A stretch of 64,000 bases of DNA, from positions 11,842,001 to 11,906,000 of the forward strand of contig NC_088812.1 of NCBI RefSeq assembly GCF_011386835.1. Direction: 5' to 3'. Origin of the DNA: Chrysemys picta bellii (taxonomy: Eukaryota). The notes beneath the pieces are model-generated. The model did not search any database and was not told where the DNA came from. It was given only the letters and a program-made list of their open reading frames with translations. Every line of letters starts with the position of its first letter. The first letter of the stretch is position 1. Below, in pieces: positions 1-60,900 of this stretch. Both the position numbers and the translations under genes were made by a program.

Positions 1-1100
1 CAGGCCAGGGCCAAGGCCAGGAGCAACCTGGCCAAGCTCACCCTGGAGAGCAGCACTGCCCTGAAGAAGCTAAGGGGCGTCCTCGAAAAGGTAAAGGCCA
101 GAGTTCCCCTAACCCTGCAGGAGAGGCCTCTGCCCCGCCCATGGGGACCTGCTCTCCCATGCATGCCTGGAGTAGCACTGGCCAAATGCAGCTCACCGCT
201 GCCCCTGTCCAGGAGAGGCAGCAGAGAGAAGTCCCAGCCATGCAGCCTGGCTGGTGGGAGACTCGCTTCCCCCAAACCCATCATCCCTTCCTGGCCCCAG
301 GGAGACACTTCTCCTGCCGTCCCCCTGCGTTGTCAACACAATCCAGCACCCCCCAGGAAAAGCGTCCAGAGCACACTGCTCGCCGAGCTGTCCCCAAGCG
401 GCCCGCTAAGGCCTCGCTTGCCCCGCAGGCAGAGCTCACCCTGCGGCTGGCCGAGATGTGTCGGAAGCTGGAGACCGAGGAGGAGAAGGTGCTGCCGTTC
501 TACGCCTCCTCGCTGAGCAGGGAGGAGCAGGAGGAGCTGGAGCAAGTCTCCCTGGAGAAGCCTGGGGAGCAGCTGGCCCAGGTAAGGGGTGAAACCGGGG
601 TGCTGGAAGGAGGGCAGGGACCCAGACGCTGGGGGTGCCTAGAGGCAGGCTGGCATAGCTGGTGGAGCGTGTGCCGCACTGGGCGGCTGGGGAGAAGGTT
701 GCTGAGAACCAAGCGCTCTTTAATTGAGGGGACAAGCAGAACCAGATGGGTGCATTGTGGGAGCCCCCCCTCAAGCTCTCCTCTGTCCTTCCAAGTGCAG
801 CTGATGCAGGATTACCTGGGCCTGGAGCACTTCTGGCAAAGGTACAACAAGGTGAAGCTGGAGCAGCTGGCTCTGGAGCGGGAGAAGGCAGTGCTGCGCC
901 AGGAGAACCAGAAGCTGCGCTTGCTCCTCAAGCAATACCTGGACGGGATCTCGGTGAGCGACGAGGTGCTCAGCCGGCTCAACCCACTGCTCATCCTCAA
1001 CCCCAAGCCCCGTGCGCCCGGGCCCGCAGGCAGAGCCCACCGAAAACCGCCCCTTCACAACGTCATCGAGGCTGCCCACGAGGTGCCACACATCCTGTGA
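1..1100 (+). CDS. CCDC65: Coiled-coil domain-containing protein 65 / dynein regulatory complex subunit 2, last three coding exons: join(<1..90,429..581,801..1100)
   Basis: Exons translate to QARAKARSNLAKLTLESSTALKKLRGVLEK / AELTLRLAEMCRKLETEEEKVLPFYASS... / LMQDYLGLEHFWQRYNKVKLEQ...LKQYLDGISVSDEVLSRLNPL, matching the DRC2 C-terminus. GT donors at 91 and 582, AG acceptors at 427-428 and 799-800, all phase 0. Stop TGA at 1098-1100; ATTAAA near 1248. Confidence 0.93.
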   Translation, partial: GQGQGQEQPGQAHPGEQHCPEEAKGRPRKGKGQSSPNPAGEASAPPMGTCSPMHAWSSTGQMQLTAAPVQERQQREVPAMQPGWWETRFPQTHHPFLAPGRHFSCRPPALSTQSSTPQEKRPEHTARRAVPKRPAKASLAPQAELTLRLAEMCRKLETEEEKVLPFYASSLSREEQEELEQVSLEKPGEQLAQVRGETGVLEGGQGPRRWGCLEAGWHSWWSVCRTGRLGRRLLRTKRSLIEGTSRTRWVHCGSPPSSSPLSFQVQLMQDYLGLEHFWQRYNKVKLEQLALEREKAVLRQENQKLRLLLKQYLDGISVSDEVLSRLNPLLILNPKPRAPGPAGRAHRKPPLHNVIEAAHEVPHIL

Positions 1101-8690: not shown

Positions 8691-10914
8691 GGGTTCTCTA
8701 TGAGTGACTCACTCTGTGTGTCTTATATTTCCTCACAGGAACAGCTTTCAGATGATTAGAACTGGGGGTTAAAATGCTGACTCTCCCCCCACCCCCAAGC
8801 ACCTTCCAGCCTTGGCAGGCAGACGTGAGGTGGAGCAGAGCATCTGGGGCATGCTGAGCTTTAAGGCACCAAGCTCCCAGCACCAGAAGGTGGCAGCAAA
8901 TCATCAACAATTCCTCCCTTTCCATCCACTTCCTACAGCGGGCGCTCCTAGGGCACTGCTGGAGGGAAGCTCGCAGCATTAGCATCCCCGCCAGCCTGGA
9001 CAGGGCACTGCTGCAAACAGGGCCCCGAATGCTTGCTGAGGATTTGATTTGCCAGAGACAAAGTCAACCTAATGGCATGTTTAAGGCCCCTGACCCTAAC
9101 CGTGTTTCGGGCATCCGAAGCAGCTGCAGACGGGGAGGGACGATCTAGTGCTTGGGGCCCAGGACACCGGGTAAGTCCTCGGCCATGCTACTGCCCTGTG
9201 GGTGATGTTAGGCAAACGAGCTCATCGCCCTGGGCCTCAGCTCCTCCGTGCCGGGGCTAACGCTCCTTCCTGGCTGGAGGCAGGGACCGCATCTCACTCC
9301 GTGTCTGGGCAACTCACGGCGCGATGGGGCCCCTGAGCTCAGCCGGGCCCCCCAGACGCTACGGGAAGACAAATAATCATTTACAGAGCGGTGGCAGTAC
9401 CTAAGGCCACAGCCAGATTGGGCCCCGCCGGGCTGGGTGCTGCCCAGGGCCTGCTCCAAAGAGCTCGGAGTCTGACAGGAGAAATTCCCCACCAGAAAGA
9501 AAGGTCCGGTGCTGGTGTGGCCATGCCGGGACCCCGTGGCAGGGTCGGAGCCAGGACGCAGAGCTGGGCAGGCCATTTCCACCGCACGCACAGCCCCAGC
9601 TGGCAAGAGGCGGGTCCCTGGGGAGGAGGTTTGGGCGGATACCTGTGAATGGGGCTGGGGTGTAACCTCCATCCATGGCTCCCGAGCGCATCGCAGCACC
9701 TGCCGGGCCAGGGCCGAGGTGGGCTCCTCTGCTCTGGGGCGTGCAGACCAGGCCCGTGAGATGATGCAGCGTGTGCTGTCTGGCCCAGCAGGGCCGCGCC
9801 CGGGTCCAGCCCCACCATAGTGCACATCCGCCCAGTTCGTGACTGACCGGTGCCCTTGAGAACTGGGGCCTCGCTGAGCCGTGGCCTGGCTTGAAGAACA
9901 CTGGACTAGCTAAAGGGGGCCAGGCTGACCAGTGTGAATGCACTCGGCCACTCCCGCTGGCTGCTCCTGTCCGGGGAAGGCCCCTCTGCCCCGCTTGGAC
10001 TGTGGCCACACAAGGGTGGGGATGGGCTCGCACACTCGGTAACAGTCCCCCCCAGGCACCATGGCTGTAAAGCACCGACCCTGGTGCAGAGCTGCCGGGT
10101 CTGAGGGACCCTGGTGTGGCCAGCGCGTGTGCTCTGACGGGGCCGTGCAGGCTGCGTTCGTTCTGTGCAGGGGCAGCGCCGGGGGCCCTGCTCAGGAAGG
10201 TGCTAGGAGCTGTACAAGCGTTTCCAGCTGCTCCTCTCACCAGGGACAGCCCCAGCGAGCTGCACCCCCCAGTCATCCCGCTCAGCAGTGCCAGCTCTAG
10301 GGCTGGGCGGAGGAGCCAGCTCCGGTTGGGCTCAGCTGAAGGCTCGTGCTCCGGCCTGTGGGCACCAGCTTTGCCAGGCCAAGCAGCGTCCAGCTGGGAG
10401 TCTGCCTGTCTCCCTGCAGCACGGGGGTGTGGGGCCACCCAGCACCACAAGGCGCCGCGGGGGGCCAGAGCGTGGGCTGGGCTGTGGGGCTGGCTCCCAG
10501 GGCGACGGGATCGGCATGCCAGCTATTCCTCCGCCGGGACGCTGCTCCCATTGTCTGGGCCACGCCTGTCATTCCCCGGCCGCGGCCCCGCCACCTGCAC
10601 CCACATACCAGCCCCCGTTGCCGTGATGTGGCGAAGACGGGCTGGCGGCTCGGGCCGTGAGGCTGTAATGGGATTACGGGAGCTGGGGCGGCTCGGGGCT
10701 GCGCCCCCTCCCCTGCCCAGAGACAATGTGAGATGGATGGGCTGGTGGGAAACCGGCCCCAGCCTCCAGCCCGGGAGCGGGGAGGGGGGCTCCGGCAGTG
10801 GGGTCCCAGCAGACCCCTGAGCAAAGGCTGCTGCCAGGAAGGGACACAGGATCGGGCCCTGTCACCTCACAGCTGCTGCAGCCATGGCTTATAACAAAGT
10901 GCCAGAATCAAAGC

Positions 10915-11156
10915 AGGAGTCCTGGCCCCCTACACCCCCTCCCCCTCCCAGAGCCGGGGATAGAACCCAGGAGTCCTGGCTCCTGGCCCCCTGCATTCCC
11001 TCCCCGAGCCGGGGATAGAACCCAGGAGTCCTGGCTCCCGGCCCCCTGGACTCCCTCCCCCTCCCCGAGCCAGGGATAGAACCCAGGAGTCCTGGCTCCC
11101 GGCCCCCTGGACTCCCTCCCCCTCCCCGAGCTGGGGATAGAACCCAGGAGTCCTGG
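10915..11156 (-). repeat. Shortened SINE-head tandem array, left flank of the LTR element
   Basis: Repeated gggatagaacccaggagtcctggctcc units run up to the LTR start. Confidence 0.85.
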
Positions 11157-11574
11157 TGTGACGGAGCAGGGAGCGGGGCAGATTTGACCTGGGAATGTTG
11201 CAGGGGGATTGCAGTGGGGATGTGGGACTTCCCTTGAAGGAAGCTACCTGAGCTGTAACCTGAGCCAGGAGGGGGTGGGGAGAATTAACACCTTCTGCCC
11301 GGGAGACTGAACAAAGGAGAGGAGCAGCAGGAGGAGTTTTGGTTTAGTTTCTGTTTGGGCTGGGTGGTGCAACGCAGGGAACCCCAAGCTGGGGTCTAAG
11401 CTCCCTGAACCTCCCAGAGGGACCTAATTGAGGGGGTCTGGTCGTACCTACACGCTCTGCTTGAGACTGTGTTCCTGTCCTTAAATAAACCTTCTGCTCT
11501 ACTGGCTGGTTGAGAGTCACAGTGAATCTCAGGCAGAGGGGTGCAGGGCCCTGACTCCCCCACACTCCGTGACA
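11157..11574 (+). repeat. 5' LTR
   Basis: Runs TGTGACGGAG...CTCCGTGACA, a 9/10 terminal inverted repeat. AATAAA at 11484-11489. Confidence 0.96.
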
Positions 11575-11576
11575 AC

Positions 11577-11594
11577 TGGTGGCAGCGGTGGGAT
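11577..11594 (+). promoter_or_regulatory. Primer-binding site complementary to the tRNA-Leu 3' end
   Basis: TGGTGGCAGCGGTGGGAT is the reverse complement of ATCCCACCGCTGCCA-CCA, the 3' end of vertebrate tRNA-Leu(AAG/TAG). It begins 2 nt after the LTR. Confidence 0.85.
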
Positions 11595-11704
11595 CTACTG
11601 CACCCCGTGGACGGCGCTTCCTGCAGTAAGTGACTGGGGAGCAGTAAAACGAAGGGGGATTGACGGGGACCAGGCGTGCTGAAGAGTGAGTGGCCAGCAG
11701 GAAG

Positions 11705-14700
11705 ATGTATGCCAAGCGGCTTAAGAGCGACCTGGTGGAGCTGTGCAAGCAGAGGGGGCTGCGCATTGGGAGGTTCACCAAAGAACAGCTCATTGCCCGG
11801 CTGGAGGCGGAAGATCGCGCGAATGAACTGATCCCTGTGTCTCAGGGAAGCAGCCTGGCAAATGCAGCGCAGGCACCAGTGTCTGTCCCAGCTGGGAGTG
11901 GTCAGCCGGCTGCTGAGGGCTTCCCGAGACCCCTCCTTCCTATGCCTAGGGGAAGGGTGGGGAGGAGCCCAGCAAATACCGAGGGCGCCAGCAGGGGATC
12001 CTCCCGGCGAAGCTCGCCGGCCAGCAGAGGATCCTCCCGGCAACGTTCGGCATCTGTGGAGCGGAATTGGCTGGAATGGGAGAAAGAGCTAAAACTGAGA
12101 GAGCTGGAGGATCGTGAACGACAGAGACAGCATGAACGGGAGGAGAATGAGAGACAGCGTCAGCATGAACTGGAACTGGCGAGACTGAGGGGCAGCGAAC
12201 CCCCGGCTGCGGTGAGTGAGGGGGGACCCAGGACTGCACGGAGCTTTGATAAGTGCATCCTGGCCCCACGCAAGGAGGGGGAGGACATGGATGACTTCCT
12301 GGATGCCTTTGAGATGGCCTGCGAGCTGCACCGGGTTGATCCCGCGGACAGACTCCGGGTCCTTACCCCCTTACTGGACCCCAAATCCGTGGCATTGTAC
12401 CGCCAACTGGGAGAGGCAGAGAAAGGGGACTACGAACTATTCAAAAAGGCCCTGCTACGTGAGTTTGGGCTGACTCCTGAGATGTACCGGGAAAGGTTCC
12501 GGAGTCAGGATAAAACCCCTGAGATCTCTTATCTGCAACTAGCCGTCCGCATGGAAAGATACGCCAGCAAGTGGGCTGGTGGGGCCCAGACGAAGGAGGA
12601 CCTGGTTAAACTGCTGGTACTGGAGCAACTGTATGAGCGGTGCCCATCCGACCTGAGGCTGTGGTTGGTGGACAGAAAGCCAGAGAACCCGCGACACGCA
12701 GGGCGGCTGGTCGATGAGTTTGTAAAGAGCCGGTCAGGGGGTGGCAGGGAGGAGCCCCAAAGGAACAGGCCCGCCGCGATGCAGAGAGAGAGTCACCCTG
12801 GGACCTCCCAAAGGGGGAATATGGGGAATCCCCTCCCACGGGGAATGCCCAGCGTCAGGGACAACCGACCGGCTCGAGGGGACCCACGGGACATGAGCTG
12901 CTATTACTGCGGCCGAAGAGGCCACGTTCGGGCCCAGTGCCCCAAGCTCAAGGACAGACTGAGCAGACCGAACCCGCACTGGGTTAACTTGGTAGAGGCC
13001 CAGACGAACGAGGGGCAGGCTTCTCACGCAAGAGGAGCTGGCAGCTTATCAACTGCTCAAGAGAGAGAAGGGCCCCAGGCCAGCTTCTCTGGGGGGCCAG
13101 ATGCTCCGGATTCAAAGTTCTCCGTTTACAGGGTGGGCGCGGGGCTGTCCCTGCGGAGCGAGTGCCTTGTTCCCCTGGAGGTGGATGGGAAGAAAGTTTA
13201 TGGATACTGGGACACGGGCGCAGAGGTGACACTGGCCCGGCCCGAGGTGGTGGCCCCAGATCGGGTGGTGCCCAACACCTTCCTGACCCTGACCGGGGTG
13301 GGCGGGACCCCATTCAAGGTTCCCGTAGCAAGGGTACACCTGAAATGGGGGGCCAAGGAGGGCCCCAAGGATGTGGGAGTGCACCACCATTTGCCCACTG
13401 AGGTGTTGATGGGGGGGGACCTAGAGGACTGGCCAAGCAGCCCCCAGACCGCCTTAGTCGTGACCCGTAGCCAGAGCCGGCGAGGGGCACTACGCCCTAA
13501 CCTTGGGAAGGATGTCACACCGGAGGCACCGAACCCTACCCGGGTAGGGAGGGAACACCCAAGGACAAGGCTCGGGGTGGCTGGGGCTCCCGACCCAGCC
13601 GACGAGAGGGAGCAGGTCCCCATCCCTTCCCCAGCCGCCGAGTTCCAGGCCGAGTTGCAGAAGGACCCCTCCCTGCGGAAGCTAAGGGGCCTGGCTGACC
13701 TCAGTGTGGTACAGACCATGAGGAGAGGATGCAAGGAGAGGTTCCTGTGGGAGAAGGGGTTCCTGTACCGAGAGTGGGCTCCCCCAGGGGAAGTGGAGTC
13801 GTGGGGGATCAGGAGGCAGCTGGTGGTTCCCCAGAAGTTTCGCCACAAGCTACTGTACCTGGCCCATGACATCCCTCTCGCAGGGCACCAGGGGATCCGG
13901 CGAACCAGGCAGAGGCTGCTACAGAACTTTTACTGGCCCGGGGTCTTCACCAACGTCCGGCAGTACTGCCGATCCTGTGACCCCTGCCAGCGGGTGGGGA
14001 CGGCCCGGGACAAGGGAAAAGCAGCGTTGAGACCTTTGCCCATCATAGAGGAGCCTTTCCAGAAGGTGGCCATGGACATAGTGGGACCTCTCAGCAAGAC
14101 GACCCGGTCTGGGAAGAAATACGTCCTGGTGGTGGTAGATTTCGCCACCCGCTACCCCGAGGCAGTGCCCTTATCGTCCATCGAAGCAAACACTGTGGCA
14201 GATGCGCTGCTGACCATTTTCAGCCAAGTGGGGTTCCCCAAGGAAGTCTTGACGGACCAAGGGTCCAACTTCATGTCGGCCCTACTCCGGTGCTTGTGGG
14301 AGAGATGTGGGGTCCGGCACAACTGGGCCTCAGCATATCACCCCCAATCCAACGGGCTGGTGGAGAGGTTCAATGGGACGCTAAAAATGATGCTGAAAAC
14401 ATTTATGAATCAGCACCCGCAGGACTGGGACAAGTACTTACCTCACCTGCTGTTTGCGTACAGGGAGGTACCCCAGGAGTCTACCGGGTTTTCGCCTTTC
14501 GAACTGTTATATGGAAGGCAGGTAAGGGGGCCCCTGGACCTGATGAGAGACGAATGGGAGGGGAAGGCCACTCCTGATGGAGAGTCGGTGGTGGAGTATG
14601 TCCTGACCTTCCGGGAACGACTTGCCGAGCTCATGGACCTGGCCAGGGAGAGTCTGGCCAGAGCCCAGAGGAAGCAGAAGGTCTGGTATGACCGCACAGC

Positions 14701-16363
14701 ACGGGCCCGCGCCTTCGCCACTGGGGATCAGGTGATGGTCCTCATCCCCGTGAGGAAAAACAAACTCCAGGCCGCCTGGGAAGGGCCCTTCAAGGTTGTC
14801 AAGCAACTAAACGAGGTAAACTATGTGGTGGAGCTGTCGAACCGGGCACACCACCGCCGGGTGTACCATGTGAATATGATGAAGCCATATTATGACAGGG
14901 GGAATGTGGTGTTGGCCGTGTGTGAACATTGGGAGGGGCAGGGAGATGACCCTTTAGTAGATCTATTCCCTGGGACAAGAGCTGGCTTCCCCCTGGAAGC
15001 AATTCCCCTCTCTGATCGGCTAACCCCGGCCCAGCGAGCTGAGATCGGAGGGGTGCTGCATCTGTACCAACAGCTGTTTTCCAACCAGCCTGGACGCACT
15101 AATCTGACTGTCCACCGGGTGCAGACAGGATCGCACCCGCCTATAAAATGCTCCCCCTTCCGAGTCACAGGGAAAACTGCTCAGGACCTGGAAAGAGAGG
15201 TCAATGACATGCTGGCTTTGGGGGTGATCCAGCCGTCTTCCAGCCCTTGGGCCTCGCCGGTGGTGCTGGTCCCCAAAAAGGACGGGTCGATCCGGTTCTG
15301 TGTGGACTATCGGAAGCTCAATGCCATCACTGTAGCCGATGCCTACCCCATGCCCAGGCCGGACGAGCTCCTAGACAAGCTGGGAGGTGCTCGGTACCTT
15401 ACCACCATGGATCTTACAAAGGGCTATTGGCAAGTGCCGCTGGATGCAGATGCCAGGCTGAAATCGGCCTTTATCACCCCTCTGGGGCTCTATGAGTTCC
15501 TGACCCTGCCCTTCGGACTCAAGGGAGCACCGGCCACCTTCCAGCGCCTGGTGGATCAGCTACTGAGGGGGATGGAGAGTTTTGCCGTGGCGTATATCGA
15601 TGACATCTGCGTCTTTAGCCAGACCTGGGAGGACCACATGTCCCAGGTTAGACAAGTGCTGGACCGACTCCAGGAGGCTGGGCTGACCGTAAAACCGGAG
15701 AAGTGCAAGGTGGGGATGGCTGAGGTATCCTACCTAGGCCACCGGGTGGGGAGCAGCTGCCTAAAGCCGGAACCAGCCAAAGTGGAGGTGATCAGAGACT
15801 GGCCCGCTCCTCAAACCAAAAAGCAGGTCCAAGCCTTTATTGGGATGGCGGGGTACTATCGAAGGTTCGTGCCCCACTTTAGCGCCATAGCCGCCCCCAT
15901 CACTGAGCTGTGCAAGAAGGGGAAGCCAGACAAGGTGGTCTGGACCGAGGAGTGCCAGGAGGCTCTCCGGGCGCTGAAGGAGGCTCTGGTCAGTGGCCCA
16001 GTTCTGGCAAACCCAGACTTTGACAAGCCCTTTATGGTGTTCACCGACGCCTCAGACACGGGACTGGGGGCGGTGTTAATGCAGGAGGATGAAAAGGGGG
16101 AGAGACACCCCATCGTGTACCTGAGCAAGAAGTTGCTACCCCGGGAGCAGAACCACGCGGACATCGAGAAGGAATGCCTGGCCATGGTGTGGGCCCTCAA
16201 GAAACTAGAGCCATATCTCTTTGGGCGACACTTCACCGTGCACACCGACCACTCTCCCCTGACTTGGCTGCACCAGATGAAAGGAGCCAACGCCAAGCTC
16301 CTGAGATGGAGCCTGCTCCTGCAGGATTATGACATGGACGTGGTCCATGTTGAAGGGACGTGA
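11705..16363 (+). CDS. Gag-Pol polyprotein in a single ORF: SAP-like N-terminus, SCAN-like capsid region, CCHC knuckle, aspartic protease, integrase, RT, RNase H (C-terminus truncated by frameshift)
   Basis: First ATG is at 11705 (the track start at 11690 is GTG). Motifs in order: LKSDLVELCKQRGL...TKEQLIARL; LVLEQLYERCPSDLRLWLVDRKPEN; CYYCGRRGHVRAQC; WDTGAE; H..H/C..C followed by MDIVGP, TDQGSNF, GLVERFNGTLK and WEGPF; YIDDI; FTDASDTGLGAVL. Confidence 0.93.
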   Translation: MYAKRLKSDLVELCKQRGLRIGRFTKEQLIARLEAEDRANELIPVSQGSSLANAAQAPVSVPAGSGQPAAEGFPRPLLPMPRGRVGRSPANTEGASRGSSRRSSPASRGSSRQRSASVERNWLEWEKELKLRELEDRERQRQHEREENERQRQHELELARLRGSEPPAAVSEGGPRTARSFDKCILAPRKEGEDMDDFLDAFEMACELHRVDPADRLRVLTPLLDPKSVALYRQLGEAEKGDYELFKKALLREFGLTPEMYRERFRSQDKTPEISYLQLAVRMERYASKWAGGAQTKEDLVKLLVLEQLYERCPSDLRLWLVDRKPENPRHAGRLVDEFVKSRSGGGREEPQRNRPAAMQRESHPGTSQRGNMGNPLPRGMPSVRDNRPARGDPRDMSCYYCGRRGHVRAQCPKLKDRLSRPNPHWVNLVEAQTNEGQASHARGAGSLSTAQEREGPQASFSGGPDAPDSKFSVYRVGAGLSLRSECLVPLEVDGKKVYGYWDTGAEVTLARPEVVAPDRVVPNTFLTLTGVGGTPFKVPVARVHLKWGAKEGPKDVGVHHHLPTEVLMGGDLEDWPSSPQTALVVTRSQSRRGALRPNLGKDVTPEAPNPTRVGREHPRTRLGVAGAPDPADEREQVPIPSPAAEFQAELQKDPSLRKLRGLADLSVVQTMRRGCKERFLWEKGFLYREWAPPGEVESWGIRRQLVVPQKFRHKLLYLAHDIPLAGHQGIRRTRQRLLQNFYWPGVFTNVRQYCRSCDPCQRVGTARDKGKAALRPLPIIEEPFQKVAMDIVGPLSKTTRSGKKYVLVVVDFATRYPEAVPLSSIEANTVADALLTIFSQVGFPKEVLTDQGSNFMSALLRCLWERCGVRHNWASAYHPQSNGLVERFNGTLKMMLKTFMNQHPQDWDKYLPHLLFAYREVPQESTGFSPFELLYGRQVRGPLDLMRDEWEGKATPDGESVVEYVLTFRERLAELMDLARESLARAQRKQKVWYDRTARARAFATGDQVMVLIPVRKNKLQAAWEGPFKVVKQLNEVNYVVELSNRAHHRRVYHVNMMKPYYDRGNVVLAVCEHWEGQGDDPLVDLFPGTRAGFPLEAIPLSDRLTPAQRAEIGGVLHLYQQLFSNQPGRTNLTVHRVQTGSHPPIKCSPFRVTGKTAQDLEREVNDMLALGVIQPSSSPWASPVVLVPKKDGSIRFCVDYRKLNAITVADAYPMPRPDELLDKLGGARYLTTMDLTKGYWQVPLDADARLKSAFITPLGLYEFLTLPFGLKGAPATFQRLVDQLLRGMESFAVAYIDDICVFSQTWEDHMSQVRQVLDRLQEAGLTVKPEKCKVGMAEVSYLGHRVGSSCLKPEPAKVEVIRDWPAPQTKKQVQAFIGMAGYYRRFVPHFSAIAAPITELCKKGKPDKVVWTEECQEALRALKEALVSGPVLANPDFDKPFMVFTDASDTGLGAVLMQEDEKGERHPIVYLSKKLLPREQNHADIEKECLAMVWALKKLEPYLFGRHFTVHTDHSPLTWLHQMKGANAKLLRWSLLLQDYDMDVVHVEGT

Positions 16364-16465
16364 CAACCTGATAGCGGACGCATTGTCCCGGAGAGGGAGC
16401 CCTGAACTTCCCCAGGTCACTGGGCAGAGTGACCCCGCTCAGTTCAGTCTCGAAGGGGGGAGAGA

Positions 16466-16883
16466 TGTGACGGAGCAGGGAGCGGGGCAGATTTGACCTG
16501 GGAATGTTGCAGGGGGATTGCAGTGGGGATGTGGGACTTCCCTTGAAGGAAGCTACCTGAGCTGTAACCTGAGCCAGGAGGGGGTGGGGAGAATTAACAC
16601 CTTCTGCCCGGGAGACTGAACAAAGGAGAGGAGCAGCAGGAGGAGTTTTGGTTTAGTTTCTGTTTGGGCTGGGTGGTGCAACGCAGGGAACCCCAAGCTG
16701 GGGTCTAAGCTCCCTGAACCTCCCAGAGGGACCTAATTGAGGGGGTCTGGTCGTACCTACACGCTCTGCTTGAGACTGTGTTCCTGTCCTTAAATAAACC
16801 TTCTGCTTTACTGGCTGGTTGAGAGTCACAGTGAATCTCAGGAAGAGGGGTGCAGGGCCCTGACTCCCCCACACTCCGTGACA
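16466..16883 (+). repeat. 3' LTR
   Basis: Copy of 11157-11574 with two substitutions (gctct/gcttt and ggcag/ggaag). Preceded by the PPT gaaggggggagaga. Confidence 0.96.
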
Positions 16884-17118
16884 CCTGGCCCCCTAGACTC
16901 CTTCCCCAGAGCCAGGGACAGAACCCAGGAGTCCTGGCTCCCGGATTCCCTCCCCCTCCCAGAGCCGGGGATAGAATCCAGGAGTCCTGGCTCCTGGACC
17001 CCTAAACCCCCTCCCCGAGCTGGGGATAGAACCCAGGAGTCCTGGCCCCCTAGACTCCCTCCCCAGAGCCACGGACAGAACCCAGGAGTCCTGGCCCCCA
17101 GCCCCCTGCTCTAACCAC
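16884..17118 (-). repeat. SINE-head tandem array, right flank of the LTR element
   Basis: gaacccaggagtcctggc units continue seamlessly from the left-flank array across the TSD. Confidence 0.85.
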
Positions 17119-32634: not shown

Positions 32635-33945
32635 TCACTTGCAGACGCTGAGCCAGGTGTTGAGCCGGCACTGCTCACACAGCACGGAGCAGCACCAGTG
32701 GAAGTGGCAGCGGCAGCGCTCGCGGCGCGTCTGGCGCAGGAGGTTGTGGCCTCGCCCGCAGCACAGGCTGGCGCACCCGTCCGTTCGGGGGCTGGTGCGG
32801 TTGCAGGCACGGCCGCGGGTGCCGGGCGAGTCGAGCGCCGGGTCGTGCTCGCAGAAGTCGGGTGATTTCTCGAAGTAGACCAGCTCGCGGGCCAGGCGGC
32901 GCGGACCCAGCCGCGGCCCGAACACGCCGCTGTTGCGGTTGTGGGCGCTGATGAAGGCGGCGTGTTGCATCCGCTCCCGCAGCACCGCGCCCACCAGCCG
33001 GAACTCGGGCACCACCGGCCAGCACGTGCGGAACTGGCAGCTGCCCGACGTGCCGTGGCACTTGCACTTCCGCTTCATGTTCTCCGCCACCACCTGTTCC
33101 GGGGGAGACGGGTGAGCCGGCGGAACTCCCCGCCACTGGACCGTGCAGCGACCTGCCATGGGGGCCTGCCGCTGCTGATCCCCGGCTGCTCCCTGCTGGG
33201 GCTCAGGACGGAGCCCCCCCACACACACGCATGCAGAGTGAGCTGTGCCCGTCCTACTTATGCCTGGCCTGAGGCATCTGCCATGGGCCTCCCAGGGAGC
33301 AGCAGTGACCCTGCCCCTCCGCCCCTGCCCCCTAGCATCCCTCCCCTCCTCTCCTCGCCCGCTGTGCCCCGCAGGCACTGTGCCCCTCCCCCAGTGCCTC
33401 TCCCCCCCGTGCCCCTGCCCCCTAGCATCCCTCCCCTCCTCTCCTTGCCCGCTGTGCCCCGCAGGCACTGTGCCCCTCCCCCAGTGCCAGTGCCTCTCCC
33501 CCCCGTGCCCCTGCCCCCTAGCATCCCTCCCCTCCTCTCCTCGCCCGCTGTGCCCCGCAGGCACTGTGCCCCTCCCCCAGTGCCAGTGCCTCCCCCCCGT
33601 GCCCCTGCCTCATGGGCACCATACCTGCCTGCCCACCCAGTTGTTGTGGATCCTCATCCGGGCCTGGATGTCGCGTGGCGCCTCTCGTGAGTCCAGGAAG
33701 TCCCGGGAGAAGCGCTCCCCAAAGCTGATGTCGGGCCCGCAGCCGCCCCACTGCCAGGTGTCCTGCGGGCCGGGCTCGCCCAGGAGCGAGGCCAGGTGAG
33801 GGGGGAGGCCCTTGCCCCGGGACAGCGCCTGCAGCTGGCTCAGTTTCAGCCGCTGCTTCTCCTGGCCGCCGTGCTCCCCCCAGGCGCAGCCGCAGCCCTG
33901 CAGCTTGCCCAGGCTACAGGCCGTGGCCACCGAGTGCATCACGCC
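32635..33945 (-). CDS. WNT10B: WNT10B, last exon (32635..33093) and 3' part of the penultimate exon (33625..>33945, cut by the N gap)
   Basis: Translates [19 protein letters not shown]...[44 protein letters not shown] | [25 protein letters not shown]...[12 protein letters not shown]...CCGRGHN...FHWCC...WLSVCK*. GT-AG and phase 0. Located next to ARF3 as in human. Confidence 0.92.
33310..33610. repeat. About 80-bp tandem repeat, about 3.5 copies, in the last WNT10B intron
   Basis: Unit ccctgccccctagcatccctcccctcctctcctcgcccgctgtgccccgcaggcactgtgcccctcccccagtgc. Confidence 0.85.
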
Positions 33946-54770: not shown

Positions 54771-56285
54771 TACATAAGAACAGCCATCCTATGTCAGACC
54801 AATGGTCCATCTAGCCCAGTCTCCTGTCTTCCAGCTGAGGCCAGTGCCAGGTGACTCAGGGAATGAACAGAGCAGGGCACTTAGTGAGTGATCCATCCCC
54901 AGTCATTCAGGCCCAGCTTCCGGCAGTCAGGGGCTAGGGACACCCAGAGCCCGGGGTTGCATCCTTGAGCATCTGGGCTAATAGCCGTTGATGGACCCAT
55001 CCTCCATGAACTTTATCTAGTTCTTTTTTTAACCCAGTTATACTTTGTCCTTCACCACATCCCCTGGCAAGGAGTTCCACAGGCCGACTGGGTGTTGGGT
55101 GAAGAAATACTTCCTGATGTTTATTTTTAAAACTGCTGCCTATTCATTTTATTGAGGGACTCTGGTTCTTGTGCAATGCAAAGGGGCAAATAACACTTCC
55201 TTATTACCTGTCTCCACCCCACTCATTTTATAGACCTCTCTCATATCCCTCCACAGTCATTTTTCTAAACAGAACAGGCCCAGGCTTTTGAATCTCTCCT
55301 CGGATGGAAGCTGTTCCATCCCCCTCATCAGTTTTGTTGCCCTTCTCTAACATATCCTTTTTTTGAGATGGGGGATCGGCACTGCACACCGTGTTCAAGG
55401 TGTGGACCTACGCTGGATTTATATGGGGGCATTATATTTTCTGTATTCTCTAACCCCTGTGCTAATGTTGTGTTTGCTTTTTTGACGGCCGGTGCACCCT
55501 GAGTGGATGTTTTCAGAGAACTATCCACAATGACTCCAAGATCTCCTTCTTGAGTGGTAACAGCTCATTCAGACCCCGTCATTTGATATGTAGAGTTGGG
55601 ATGATGTTTTCCAATGTGCATTACTTTGCATTTATCAACATTGAATTTCATCTGCTATTTTCTTCCCTAGCCAGTGCCTCCGAGTTTTGTGAGATCCCTT
55701 TGTAACTCTTTGCCACCAGCTTTGGACTTAACTACCTTAAGTCATTGTGTAGCAGCTGCAAACTTTGCCACCTCACTGTTTATGCCTTTTTCCAGATCAT
55801 TTTATGAAGATGTTGAACGGCGCTAGTCCCAGTACAGATCCTTGGGGACCCTGCTATTTACCTCTCCCCACTGTCAAAACTGACCATTTAGTCCTATCCT
55901 TTGTTTCATTGTTTAACCTGTTACCGATCTGTGAGAGCACCTTCCCTCTTATCCTATGACTCCTTACTTTGCTTAAGACCCTTTGGTGAGGGACCTTGGC
56001 AAGGGCTTTCTGAAAGTCCAAGTAAACTGTATCAACACATTTGTTGACCCCCTCGAAGAATTCTAGTAGATTGGTGAGGCAGGATTTCCCTTTACATAAG
56101 CCATGTTGACTCTTCCCCAACATATCATGTCTGATAATTCTGTTCTTTACTATAGTTTCAACCAGTTTGCCTGGTACTGATGTTAGACTTACCGGCCTGT
56201 AATTGCCAGGATCGCCGCTGGAGCCTTTTTTAAAAATCAGCATCACATTAGCTACCCTCCGAGCATCTGGTCCCGAGGCTGATTT
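54771..56285 (-). mobile_element. Decayed CR1 LINE
   Basis: Minus frames give WRVANVMLIFKKGSSGDPGNYRPVSLTSVPGKLVET...GKSCLTNLLEFFE...YLDFQKALAKVPH. 3' end reads cataagaacagccatcc on +. Confidence 0.88.
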
Positions 56286-57918
56286 CAGCAATTGCTCACA
56301 TACCCCGGTGAGTCGTTCTGAGGCAGCTGGGCCATAGAGAATGGGGTCTGAGGCACCAAAAATCACAACAAGCAGGAGGCAGTGCTCACCTGGGTGCAGA
56401 TTCATGCGGAACTAACCTGCAACGAACCATCGCAGGAGAGCTGACAAACCAGACGGGTCAGAGTCAGGTTGGCCTCAGACAAAAGATTTATTTAAAAATT
56501 TTCTCAAACAGAAAATTGAAAAATGTCAGGGGAAAAAACCTGAAATTTTCCTGGGGAAAATAGTTTTACTCTGGGGGAAGCCGCACATTCTGGTGGAGAA
56601 TCTCTGGCCAGCATACAGCTTATGGCTTTGAACATCTCAGCAGACTGACTAGCCGAGAAAGCCACTGACCACAGCACAGGGGACATTTCTGTAGCATTTT
56701 CCTAGTGGGGGGAAATCAGAGGATCTCTCGATCCCAGCCCCGGAGGCAGATGGCACCAGCAGAGCCAGGCTAGGCAGCATGGCTGTGGTGGTTTGATCCG
56801 TTTAGAAATCGGAACATTCCCCTGCCCAGGACACGAGGTCGTCAGACTCATGCTCAGCTCCTGCTGCGAGGAGAACTTCCACCCCAGGCAACGGTTAACC
56901 CCCCGAAGCCACGGGGGGCAGCCAGCTGCCCTGTAAATGAAGGAGACGAGTCCATAAACGCGGCACAATCTTTACAGCCGCCTGTGTCTGACACTTCCCC
57001 ACGGCCGTAAAGCAATCGGACTTTGGCACAGCCCGGAACAGCACCGGGGATGGGACGGGAAGAGCCAAGGTGTTTGCCCCGCGCCGCGGGGGGAGCCCAG
57101 AGCCAAGACGCAGTGGATCGGTCGGCGAACAGGCCAGCTCCGCGGCAGGAGGGAGGCGAGGGCTGGGGCAGCGCCGGGGAGCAGAGGATGAACGGGCTCT
57201 GAACCAGAAGGCACGTCGTGCTAAAGGCAGGCGGAGGGCACAGGCCGGCACGTGCACTAAGGGCAGGTGGGGAGAAGGGGATGGCTGCCGGCGGGGGGGG
57301 GTGGGGGGGGAGGTGGATTTTACGCTGGGTTAATGGGGGCGACATGGGCAGGAATAACAGCACCAGCGGGAGAACTGGGCGCTGCCGTCCTGGCCCCAGG
57401 CCAGGAACAGCTTCCTCTCCCTGCCCCCGCCCATGCCAGCCTGCCCCAGCCCGCGCTGGGGGGGACCTGCCTCCAGGGATAAGCTCCAGCCCCGCAGCCC
57501 GGTCCAGGCCGGGGCCGCCAGCACAGGGCCGCTTGGGGCCAGCTGGAATGGTATTTCAGTGCTAAGGCCCCTCTCCCCCGTCCTGGTGGGAACTAGGCTG
57601 AGACTCACCAAACTCATCTCACCAAGGGCCCCACCCTGGGGCCAGCCCATCTGTCCCCCCTGCCTCCTCCCTGAGCAGCAGGCCAGGCCCACAGGAAGGA
57701 AGCCCTGGAGGGGCCGGGGGGGGGTGTCCCTGAACCAGCCTCTCCAAGCTCCCCCTGGGGCTGGGTGGATCCGTTTCAGGGACTCCCTCCCCAACTCAGC
57801 CACCCCTCTCCATCCATCGGGGGGGGGGGGGGCCTGCATGTCTCCCCTGCCCCCCACTCTCCTCTGTGCTGCCGCAGGCCATTGGCGCCCACTGAGCGGC
57901 CGGGACCTGCCCCCCCCG

Positions 57919-60900
57919 TTAATCCTCGGCCAGGGTGACGGTGACGCGGTGCCAGGCGTTGCTCAGCACCCCCCGCAGGTTCCAGATGGGCTCCACCGTG
58001 TCGGGCTGCACGTTGTAGCTGGCGTCCACGGCCTTGCAGACAATGTCCAGCTCCGTGGCGCCGGGGGGAACGGGGGCCGTGAGCTGCCACAGGCGCCAGG
58101 CCCAGGCCCGGCCCGGCTGCTGCTCCTCGCCCGTCAGCTCGGCCACGCGCCACGTCCGGCCGCCGTCCAGCGAGACGTCCACGCGCACCACGCCGCGCCC
58201 GCCCCCGCTCCAGGCGTAGCCCTTGACCGTCAGCTCCCCGGGCGGGACGGTGGCCCCCGGCGCGGGGTCCGTGATGGCCGACTGGACGGGCAGCTCCTGG
58301 ATGGCGGGGGCCGTGGTGAAATCCACCGTGTCCCAGTCCACGGCGGGCGAGAAGCCCTTGTAGTCGTTCTGCTGCCAGTGGCTTGGGCTCTCCTCCGGGC
58401 TCACGGAGACCCGGCCCAGCCACTTGACGTTGCGGGCGCCCACCACGCCCGGCACCACCACCCGCAGCGGGTAGCCGTGGTCCCGTGGCAGCTCCTCGCC
58501 GTTCATCTCGTAGGCCAGCAGCACGTCGGCCCCGCGGCCCATGGCCGTGCGGTAAGGGATGGAGGCTCCGTAGGCCACCCCGCTCAGGTCCTTATCCAGG
58601 CCCTCAAAGCAGACGTGCTGCTCACCGGCCTCCCCCTCCTCCTCCCTGTAGCCGGCGTGCGCCAGGACATCCCGGAGCCGGACACCGCCCCAGCGGGCCG
58701 TGCTGATGGCCGCCACCCCCCACTCCAGCCCCTTCACCTGCCGGACGCGGCTCATCTCCGAGCGGCGGTTCCCGGCGCACTGCAGGGTGACCGTCACCTC
58801 GTGCTTGGGGAAGCGGCGCTTGAGCTCGGGCAGCGAGAGCGCCAGCACGCGGCCCCCCGGCCCCTCCACCTGCAGCCGGTAGCTGGCGGCGTCCACGGCC
58901 GGCACTGGGAGGTGGTTGCGTTTGAAGAAGAGCTGGTTGGGCGTCAGGTAGTTCTCGGTCAGCAGCTCGGCCGGCGGCTCCGCGTTGAAGGGCTTGAGGC
59001 TGTTGACTTGGAGGGCGGGGTGCCGAGGGGGGTCCCCAGAGTAGGGGTCCCCCTGGGTGGCCTGGCTCTGCTCCTCGGGGCTCAGCTCCCCCACCTTGTA
59101 GGCCTGCAGGATCTCCAGCACGTGCGCCTGGCTGTGCACGGCGTACATGGCCCAGAAGGGCTCCAGGGCGCCCCCCGCCGCCAGCAGGACCTTGCTCTTG
59201 CCCCCCGGGTGCAGCTCCACGAAGTCGGTGATGTCGAAGACCTCGCGGCCGTAGGTCACCCAGACCCGCTCGGCCAGGCTGCGGTGTCGCCCCACCTCCT
59301 GGCGGGTGAACACGGGGTACGGCGCCCCGGGCGCGGCCTCAGCCTTCGGCTCGGCCTCCGCCGCCTGCAGGGACAAGGAGAGGGGCTCGAGGTGCATCCG
59401 CCAACATCCACGCAGGCCTCCGAGGGCCTCACCCGCCTCGGGGGGGAAGGGATGCACCCCAGGCTACGCAGCACCTCAGGGGCAGAACTGGGAGCGGAAC
59501 CAGGAATCCTGGCTCCCAGACCCCTCCCTGCTCTAACCACTAGACCCCATTCCCCTCCCAGAGCTGGGGAGAGAACCCAGGAGTCCTGGTTCCCAGCCCC
59601 CCCCGCTCTAACCACTAGATCCCACTCCCCTCCCGGAGCTGGGAGAGAACCCAGGAGTCCTGGCTCCCAGCCCCCCCTGCTCTAACCATTAGACCCCACT
59701 CCCCTCCCAGAGATGGGAGAGAACCCAGGAGTCCTGGTTCCCAGCCCCCTCCCACTGTAACCACTAGACCATGCCTCCTTCCCCAAGATGCCCATCCAGC
59801 TCTCATGCCACCTTTGTGCCCTGAGGCAGAGAGCTGAGCACTCCAGGGAGGCTCTGGGGAGCCGCCGATCCCATGACGCTGGTCCCAGCTCCCTCACCCG
59901 CCTGCGGTGATCTCCGTAGGCCAGGCCGGCGCCCAGGCCCAGCAGAGCCCCCACGGCCATGACCTTCCGTCTCCGGCTGCCGTCGCCCGGGCTCCAGGTG
60001 CCATGAGTGCGGGAGGGGGTCCAGGCAGTGCAGGCTTGGGGGTGGGACCCCCAGGCCACAGCTGCCAACCTGGGGGAGAAACCAGGACTCCAGTGAGGGC
60101 AAAAATCCCCCAGCAACCTCCCTGCCATCTACAGGACACCCAGGGCACCAGCCCAGCACGTCCTGCTCGCCTGCCATCTACCGGCTGTGCAGCAGGGGGC
60201 GCTCTCTGCACAGGGCTGACCCCACTGCGGCACTAGGGGGCGCTGTGCTGCAGGGTGGGGCTCAGCAAGGGGCGCTTTGCCCCTCCCCCGCATTCCTGGC
60301 CCGCTTCCAACCCAGCCTCCCTAAAATAATACCTGTAATTTCAGCCCGACCCGGGAGTCCTGTTCACGTCCTTTGCTAGGCGACTGTGCGGCTGTTAAAC
60401 AGTTGCCACCTGCCACCCCAGAGGTGGCTGCATTTCAGCCTCCAGCCCCTGGGCTCCCTCTGGCACCTGAACGGTTCCCGGCCCTGGACTCCTTCCCAGG
60501 CCAGCAGCCGGTGGAACATTAACCCAGAGTTCCCCTACCACAGGTCTGATAAGATAACGCCAGCCATCGAGCCATAAAGGGATCTCCCCTGCCAGATAAA
60601 ACTCGCCTGCTCTCTCGCTGGGGCTGCGGCTGAGAGCGTCTGCAGGGGGCAGAGATTAGATTAGAGCCGCTGGGGGATTCTGCAAAACCCTGGCAAGGTG
60701 TCAAAGTGGCAGCTGCCCTAAAGAGAATCCCAAAGGAACTTCACGCTAGCTCCCTCCTCGCCTTTTCCCTTTGCAGTCCCAGGGGCTGCGGGTGGGAGTG
60801 AGGGGCACCGGCAGAGCTGGGGGGGAGCCCGGGGCTGGGCTAGCAGGGGGCTGGGCAGTGAGGGGCACCGGCAGAGCTGGGAAGGGGGGGGAAGAGCAGG

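What the first reader, a model, noticed from the sequence alone, without database searches (positions are those of the whole stretch)
11157..16883. Very young, near-intact Gmr1-type gypsy retrotransposon with SAP-like and SCAN-like gag
Seen in sequence: the LTRs differ at only 2 of 418 nt, and the TSD, tRNA-Leu PBS and PPT are all present. A single 1553-codon ORF (from the ATG at 11705) has the order PR-IN-RT-RH, with intact DTG, HHCC, D-D-E and YIDD motifs. Established: integrase upstream of RT in a gypsy element defines the Gmr1 clade, and such elements were proposed as the source of the SCAN domain of vertebrate SCAN-zinc-finger proteins. Inference: the family was mobile very recently or is still active in this lineage. 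It also carries an N-terminal SAP/HeH-like helix pair, a possible chromatin tether.
Basis: partly seen in the sequence, partly recalled or inferred. Interest (0 to 1): 0.7.

Follow-up and report, generated by a model that had tools for sequence, protein, structure and literature searches.

The report
Broken copy of young turtle retrotransposon
This is a damaged copy, likely a few million years old, of a large turtle jumping-gene family of a known kind (Gmr1-like), whose capsid matches the SCAN domain of vertebrate gene regulators and whose first 40 residues are predicted to fold like a small nucleic-acid-binding SAP domain.

Summary
The anatomy is confirmed: 418-nt LTRs differing at 2 sites, CCTGG target duplication, tRNA-Leu primer site, purine tract, and one ORF reading Gag(SCAN)-PR-IN-RT-RH. 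The RT groups with integrase-first, SCAN-bearing gypsy elements. This is a Gmr1-like element, already reported as abundant in turtles.

'Near-intact' needs correcting. A frame shift near 16350 cuts off the conserved end of RNase H, and 210 nt of leader are missing. 'Very young' also weakens. The assembly likely holds the other haplotype of this site 47 kb away, with its own damage. Pooled LTR divergence of 6/836 gives about 4-16 Myr, depending on the rate.

The family is large (804 exact leader matches) and young. Of 32 two-LTR copies, 7 have identical LTRs and 13 have uninterrupted ORFs. Present activity is not shown.

Two extras: a SAP-fold Gag N-terminus shared with frog elements (not found in my paper searches), and clustering of copies at chromosome ends. 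A tether role is untested. New member of a known kind; interest 0.3.

The parts
11152..11156 (.). Left target-site duplication CCTGG, inside a GC-rich 50-60 nt minisatellite
   Evidence: 5-bp duplication perfect in 28 of 32 two-LTR copies
11157..11574 (+). 5' LTR, 418 nt, TG...CA, AATAAA at 11484-11489
11577..11594 (+). Primer-binding site, complementary to the 3' end of tRNA-Leu (AAG/TAG)
11595..11704 (+). Shortened 5' leader; 210 nt missing near 11685 between short direct repeats
   Evidence: junction word found 2 times against 804 for the full-leader word
11705..16363 (+). Single Gag-Pol ORF, 1552 aa, ending early at the RNase H C-terminus
11705..11827 (+). SAP/HeH-fold helix pair (residues 1-41), predicted
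   Evidence: Pfam SAP below cut-off; model pLDDT 82, helices 7-17 and 26-41; top fold matches mostly SAP domains; conserved in turtle and frog elements
12050..12193 (+). Charged long helix, likely coiled coil (residues 116-163); repeat number varies among copies
12287..12733 (+). Capsid; C-terminal half is SCAN-like (residues 258-343)
   Evidence: Pfam SCAN E 4e-11; profile matches ZNF24, PEG3 and ZNF42 SCAN structures, E 3e-7 to 6e-4
12896..12946 (+). CCHC zinc knuckle (nucleocapsid)
13145..13459 (+). Aspartic protease, DTG at 13211 (limits approximate)
   Evidence: motif; no Pfam protease row for this ORF, weak protease rows in relatives
13826..14890 (+). Integrase (HHCC, D-D(35)-E, SH3/GPF), placed before RT
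15269..15748 (+). Reverse transcriptase, YIDD at 15593
16016..16388 (+). RNase H, broken by a frame shift near 16350; terminal motif stranded in another frame at about 16365-16388
16452..16465 (+). Polypurine tract, 14 nt
16466..16883 (+). 3' LTR, 418 nt
16884..16888 (.). Right target-site duplication CCTGG

Best explanation
This is a damaged, likely dead copy of a large turtle family of Gmr1-like gypsy LTR retrotransposons, likely inserted some millions of years ago and likely carried on both chromosomes of the sequenced animal. How the family works (inferred from anatomy and the standard Ty3/gypsy cycle): the 5' LTR drives a genomic RNA; one Gag-Pol polyprotein is cut by its protease; the SCAN-bearing capsid forms particles; RT primes on tRNA-Leu and the purine tract; integrase, encoded before RT, inserts the DNA with a 5-bp duplication (shown) at GC-rich sites, enriched near chromosome ends (enrichment shown, cause not). 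The N-terminal SAP-fold pair is most likely an auxiliary nucleic-acid-binding module of Gag (predicted fold, untested function). This copy has since lost part of its leader and the end of its RNase H; its other allele lost the start codon and the SAP part.
For: Anatomy and domain order. RT closest to Ty3 RT (E 7e-95) and inside the integrase-first group (31 rows on one side of a branch, 95/91). Family size: 804 exact leader-word matches. Youth: 32 two-LTR copies, median 1 LTR mismatch, 7 identical pairs; closest two copies 0.12% apart. Purifying selection among copies: pN/pS 0.29 integrase, 0.26 protease, 0.24 connection/RNase H, 0.39 SCAN, 0.51 RT. Damage. Other haplotype: same TSD and flanks in an inverted, gap-bounded block. 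The 4 flank differences in 10300-10930 appear as homozygous or heterozygous alleles in 4 of 4 other runs laid, as expected for alleles of one locus. Rate 2.3e-10 per site per year for painted turtle (PMC9995274, Supplementary Table 9).
Against: The frame shift is on one haplotype only and could be an assembly error (could not tell). The type element Gmr1 was not in the tree. 15 of 33 differences between the two haplotype versions have both states in other copies, so gene conversion or recurrent mutation may disturb the clocks. The genome-wide rate may understate mutation in GC-rich, methylated DNA. The SAP region shows no purifying selection among the young copies (pN/pS 2.5, few sites).
Confidence: 0.85

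Rival explanations
1. The copy is a very recent, functional insertion; the frame shift is an assembly error and the family is jumping today.
For: Only 2 LTR differences and all other catalytic motifs present; 13 of 32 sampled copies open to the RNase H end, 7 of 32 with identical LTRs; the other haplotype lacks the frame shift.
Against: The two haplotype versions differ by 0.78% internally, like their flanks (4/631, 8/1001 and 11/1301), and each has its own leader deletion. Identical 420-nt LTRs are expected for 1-5 Myr at turtle rates. No RNA or insertion-polymorphism evidence was obtained.
Confidence: 0.08
2. The near-identical element 47 kb away is a true segmental duplicate and not the other haplotype; the insertion would then predate the duplication.
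For: The blocks differ by 1.4% substitutions over 28.6 kb of aligned flank when repeats are included, high for alleles.
Against: The block lies between two 500-N gaps and repeats the CCDC65-like gene end. Other runs show single alleles at the distinguishing sites, for example only C at 10401 and 10407 in X1 and X2.
Confidence: 0.12
3. The SAP-fold domain is a chromatin or nuclear-envelope tether that steers integration to chromosome ends.
For: Fold matches to SAP domains (Tho1 TM 0.80; Hcc-1 Z 7.0) and the emerin LEM domain (Z 5.5); conservation from turtles to frogs; 33 of 59 leader-word hits on C1 and 35 of 83 LTR-word elements on 12 chromosomes lie within 3 Mb of an end, against 1.7% and 4% expected.
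Against: The Rho RNA-binding N-terminus fits as well (Z 6.5); Z under 8 is common for small helical folds; no Foldseek row reached E 0.001; net charge of the 40 residues is -4 to +5 across 30 homologues; no purifying selection among young copies; integrase preference for GC-rich DNA (TSD GC 70%) or uneven removal could also give the end bias.
Confidence: 0.15

Closest known systems
Gmr1-like Ty3/gypsy LTR retrotransposons (Goodwin and Poulter 2002 and Emerson and Thomas 2011, not read, known here through citing passages; bioRxiv 10.1101/2025.03.03.638093, passages read)
   Same: [quoted passage not shown]
   Different: Nothing in kind. The N-terminal SAP-fold pair and the chromosome-end clustering were not found in the papers I could search; this copy is damaged.
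Relatives in other turtles and frogs
   Same: RT 98% identical to a Chrysemys picta bellii protein, 91-96% to sea-turtle proteins (two clusters of 577 and 509 members), 91% to Pelodiscus, 62-66% to frog elements with the same order; many frog and turtle Gags begin with the same helix pair.
   Different: 13 of 32 sampled copies in this genome run 1597-1648 aa to the RNase H end; the window copy stops at 1552.
SCAN domains of host zinc-finger proteins (ZNF24 3lhr, PEG3 4bhx, ZNF42 2fi2)
   Same: Profile matches at E 3e-7, 4e-5 and 6e-4; Pfam SCAN above cut-off.
   Different: Here SCAN is the capsid C-terminal half inside a Gag-Pol, with a CCHC knuckle and no C2H2 array.
Yeast Ty3 (4ol8, 7q5b)
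   Same: Best solved-structure match for RT-RNase H, E 7e-95.
   Different: Ty3 has integrase last and a frameshift between gag and pol (recalled); here one frame and integrase first.
SAP/HeH-fold domains (Tho1 4uzw, Hcc-1 2do1, hnRNPUL1 1zrj, Rho N-terminus 1a62, emerin LEM 7ndy); SAP in Chlamys Penelope-like elements and Zisupton transposons (PMC8557442, passage)
   Same: Two helices joined by an extended loop, TM 0.80 to Tho1 and Z 5.5-7.0; SAP is a known accessory of other mobile elements.
   Different: Below Pfam's SAP cut-off; placed at the Gag N-terminus; ligand unknown.

Membership tests
Gmr1-like gypsy retrotransposons | Integrase upstream of RT (PR-IN-RT-RH) | tested here: met
Gmr1-like gypsy retrotransposons | RT of Ty3/gypsy type, not copia | tested here: met
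   RVT_1 hit and no RVT_2 row; best structure Ty3 RT, E 7e-95
Gmr1-like gypsy retrotransposons | RT groups with other integrase-first gypsy elements | tested here: met
   31 integrase-first rows against 9 integrase-last rows, one change, 95/91; 40 rows kept of 129; midpoint root only
Gmr1-like gypsy retrotransposons | RT groups with the cod type element Gmr1 itself | not tested
   no tool returned a sequence named Gmr1
Gmr1-like gypsy retrotransposons | SCAN-like capsid C-terminal domain | tested here: met
Gmr1-like gypsy retrotransposons | LTRs, tRNA primer site, purine tract, target duplication | tested here: met
Autonomous (transposition-competent) copy | Uninterrupted ORF through the RNase H end and a full leader | tested here: not met
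   frame shift near 16350 and 210-nt leader loss in the assembly; the indel is not verified in reads
SAP domain (PF02037) | Score above Pfam's curated cut-off | tested here: not met
   20.7 bits against 23.9; the SAP rows of homologues are also below it
SAP domain (PF02037) | Helix-extension-helix fold | tested here: met
   predicted model, pLDDT 82; SAP structures hold Foldseek ranks 1-4 and VIA ranks 1, 4, 9, 10, with middling scores
SAP domain (PF02037) | Binds DNA or chromatin | not testable with these tools
   needs a binding assay

The most novel reading that the evidence does not exclude
Turtle and frog Gmr1-like retrotransposons carry a SAP-fold module at the matrix position of Gag that tethers the integration complex to subtelomeric, GC-rich chromatin, and the painted-turtle family is still transposing: a living amniote source of SCAN capsids with a built-in targeting domain.
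Probability: 0.1. Interest if true: 0.65.

Novelty: new member of a known kind. Interest (0 to 1): 0.3.

Why it matters
As one copy it matters little: it is damaged and belongs to a group already reported as abundant in turtles. The family is useful because young, open-frame relatives of the SCAN domain's source survive in an amniote, so the capsid form of SCAN can be compared with the host form. If the SAP-fold N-terminus binds chromatin and explains the chromosome-end clustering, it would be a Gag-based targeting route in gypsy elements, where targeting is usually ascribed to integrase (recalled). The case also carries a practical warning: in turtles, near-identical LTRs can still mean millions of years.

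Tried and rejected
(1) The near-identical element at C22:11800082-11805646 as a second, fresh jump: rejected, it shares the TSD and about 37 kb of surrounding block.
(2) The 210-nt leader loss as a spliced intron or a spreading subfamily: rejected. Its ends are short direct repeats that do not give GT-AG, and the junction word occurs 2 times against 804.
(3) Genotyping the insertion in other animals: no verdict; the minisatellite breaks contigs at both junctions. The same data could not confirm the indel near 16350.
(5) Whole-Gag model: pLDDT 51, no Foldseek match at E 0.001; Arc and PNMA2 capsids appear only at E 0.75 or worse.
(6) phmmer of residues 1-45 against PDB sequences: 0 hits. ESM Atlas top score 0.80 (SAP), a lead only.
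(7) Targeting of the host minisatellite: one junction word gave 0 hits, too narrow to mean much.
(8) CR1 control for the chromosome-end bias: only 5 and 9 hits, none of the 8 outside the window seen within 3 Mb of an end (the length of C6 was not known); weak.
(9) P0028 (SCAN plus C2H2 gene model) as a fresh SCAN capture: no family sequence within about 20 kb upstream of its finger exon; unsupported.
(10) The bacterial promoter scan was irrelevant. ARAGORN found no tRNA gene in the window.
(11) Emerson and Thomas 2011 and a crocodilian genome paper were not held. Earlier scan findings: none.
Full report
1. Observation. The element spans 11157-16883. The LTRs are 418 nt, begin TG, end CA and differ at 2 sites; CCTGG flanks both ends; an 18-nt primer site starts 2 nt after the 5' LTR; a 14-nt purine run abuts the 3' LTR. 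A search of the genome with the complement of the primer site plus a tRNA loop motif gave 5 places; 3 of the 4 scanned are tRNA-Leu (AAG, AAG, TAG) genes. The ORF 11705-16363 has 1552 residues. Pfam places SCAN (258-343, E 4e-11), a CCHC knuckle, the integrase zinc finger, core and SH3 parts (708-1062), RT (1189-1348) and RNase H (1438-1542) in that order. DTG, HHCC, D-D(35)-E and YIDD are present. SAP scores 20.7 bits against a cut-off of 23.9 on the first 52 residues.

2. The copy is damaged. The frame shifts near 16350, so the ORF ends before the conserved terminal RNase H motif, which lies in another frame at about 16365-16388. That this motif's aspartate is the fourth RNase H carboxylate is recalled from Ty3 and HIV work, not tested. 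In pairwise alignments to 31 other two-LTR copies, 29 differ from the window by this indel and 2 have a deletion spanning the site. The window copy also lacks 210 nt of leader near 11685 relative to 28 of the 31; one other copy shares the loss and two have larger losses. The junction word occurs 2 times in the genome, the full-leader word 804 times. Contigs of four other runs could not show whether the indel is real or an assembly error.

3. The twin. The best LTR match elsewhere lies 47 kb upstream on the other strand. It has the same TSD and flanks. About 37 kb between two 500-N gaps repeat the window's first 22.4 kb and the 10 kb before it, including the end of a CCDC65-like gene. In 10300-10930 the two blocks differ at 4 sites. 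All 4 appear in contigs of other runs as alleles: X1 and X2 carry only the twin's letter at 10401 and 10407, X6 carries both, X7 only the window's. Fixed paralogues would show both letters in every animal. The twin is therefore most likely the other haplotype, and the insertion sits on both. The two versions differ by 0.78% internally, like unique flank (4/631, 8/1001, 11/1301). The twin's LTRs differ at 4 sites plus an indel. It keeps part of the leader that the window lost, but has lost the start codon and the SAP part. Each allele decayed separately. Against a clean clock: 15 of 33 differences have both states in other copies.

4. Age. K is 2/418 (Poisson range 0.06-1.7%), or 6/836 pooled (0.26-1.6%). 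PMC9995274, Supplementary Table 9 (row read) gives 2.3e-10 per site per year for painted turtle. That yields 10 and 16 Myr; an assumed 1e-9 for GC-rich methylated DNA yields 2.4 and 3.6 Myr. The copy is young for a turtle genome, but not fresh.

5. The family. I took the 38 best integrase-region matches outside this site, 2 LTR-pair loci, the twin and the window: 42 in all, a sample biased to young copies. Both LTRs were parsed in 32; 10 were dropped (6 lacked a primer-site or purine-tract anchor, 4 lacked a 3' end). The median LTR mismatch is 1; 7 pairs are identical; 28 of 32 have a perfect 5-bp duplication. 13 of 32 are open from the Gag start to the RNase H end (1597-1648 aa), 16 break earlier and 3 lack the start word. 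Copies differ by 1.3% on average and 0.12% at least, the latter equal to 0.6-2.6 Myr. pN/pS is 0.24-0.51 in protease, integrase, RT, RNase H and SCAN, but 1.0 in the capsid N-terminal half and 2.5 in the SAP part, on few sites. So the family spread within the last few million years; activity today is not shown. The closest named proteins are from Chrysemys picta bellii (RT 98%); sea turtles have 91-96% identical RTs, two clusters holding 577 and 509 members.

6. Placement. The RT-RNase H is closest to Ty3 among solved structures (E 7e-95). In an RT tree of 40 rows (of 129; rows without a single RT or an assignable integrase were dropped), the 31 integrase-first rows, the window among them, form one side of a branch at 95/91 against 9 integrase-last rows. 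Cod Gmr1 was not available. A Gag profile matches the SCAN structures of ZNF24, PEG3 and ZNF42.

7. The N-terminal module. With 30 aligned homologues, residues 1-46 fold at pLDDT 82 into helices 7-17 and 26-41. Foldseek ranks SAP domains 1-4 (Tho1 TM 0.80, rmsd 0.8 over 40 columns; E 0.27). VIA-align gives Hcc-1 SAP Z 7.0 (rmsd 3.0, 45 aligned), Rho N-terminus 6.5 (2.0, 43) and emerin LEM 5.5 (1.4, 39); such Z values are common for small helical folds. Across turtle Gags the region is 79% identical, against 64% for the next linker and 73% for the capsid. It recurs at the start of frog Gmr1-like Gags (Rhinoderma, Lithobates, Phyllobates, Bufo, Discoglossus, Pseudophryne, Xenopus). A profile found it in 25 of 239 held-out proteins at E under 0.05, plus one spurious internal match; many of the 239 are partial or unrelated. 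Net charge runs from -4 to +5. The fold is likely SAP/HeH; the ligand is unknown. An auxiliary nucleic-acid-binding role is my best guess; a chromatin tether is one option among three.

8. Target sites. TSDs are 70% GC and flanks average 52% GC. Copies cluster within 3 Mb of chromosome ends: 33 of 59 on C1 (1.7% expected) and 35 of 83 on 12 chromosomes with a second word (4% expected). The CR1 control was too small. The cause is open.

9. [quoted passage not shown] PMC4131045 (passages) reports about 200 Gmr1-like copies in Silurana, over half with SCAN. PMC4592553, PMC8321522 and PMC8557442 (passages) restate the SCAN origin and the odd domain order; the last notes SAP domains in Penelope-like and Zisupton elements. 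Emerson and Thomas 2011 and Goodwin and Poulter 2002 were not read and may describe the N-terminus. Searches for SAP or helix-extension-helix in a gypsy Gag (listings, with one paper opened) found no such report; Repbase and most subscription papers were not searchable.

10. Verdict. A real Gmr1-like gypsy element of a known kind, in a host group where such elements are known to abound. This copy is broken, likely on both haplotypes, and likely millions of years old. The family is young and large. The SAP-fold Gag terminus and the chromosome-end bias are modest, testable extras. Interest 0.3.

Noticed in passing
window 1-22433 and G000:C22:11794399-11831104: The first 22.4 kb of the window, plus about 10 kb before it, are repeated in inverted orientation at 95-98% identity in a block bounded by two 500-N gaps; likely a falsely duplicated haplotype.
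   Followed up: yes
G000 C1-C13: Family copies cluster at chromosome ends: 33 of 59 on C1 and 35 of 83 on 12 chromosomes within 3 Mb of an end; 4 of 7 copies with identical LTRs too. The control was weak.
   Followed up: partly
P0052 (Dendropsophus ebraccatus gene model): A frog protein model joins a whole Gmr1-like Gag (SAP-like, coiled coil, capsid, SCAN) to a C2H2 finger array. If real, it is a SCAN-zinc-finger fusion outside amniotes, against the single-capture view; it may be a gene-model artefact.
   Followed up: no
P0003, P0028, P0034, P0035, P0038: Turtle gene models splice family Gag pieces to host domains (Ig, C2H2, guanylate-binding protein, KRAB, MACF1). P0028 found no support within about 20 kb of its finger exon; the others were not checked.
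   Followed up: partly
window 12050-12193: The Gag coiled-coil repeat varies in frame among copies, from 12 nt shorter to about 140 nt longer than here.
   Followed up: no
window 12556-12605 and 13991-14026: Differences between the two haplotype versions cluster here, and many have both states in other copies, a hint of gene conversion.
   Followed up: partly
window 141-1100, 32635-33159, 57919-59397: Host genes: a sperm-tail (CCDC65-like) C-terminal exon, a Wnt exon and a sulfite-oxidase-like ORF (gene names from my own knowledge).
   Followed up: no
window 55854-56405: Fragment of a non-LTR reverse transcriptase, CR1-like by my reading (RVT_1).
   Followed up: partly
window 10920-11156, 16884-17107 and many other places: A GC-rich 50-77 nt dispersed minisatellite, split by this insertion, recurs about 25 times in the window on one strand and also inverted.
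   Followed up: no
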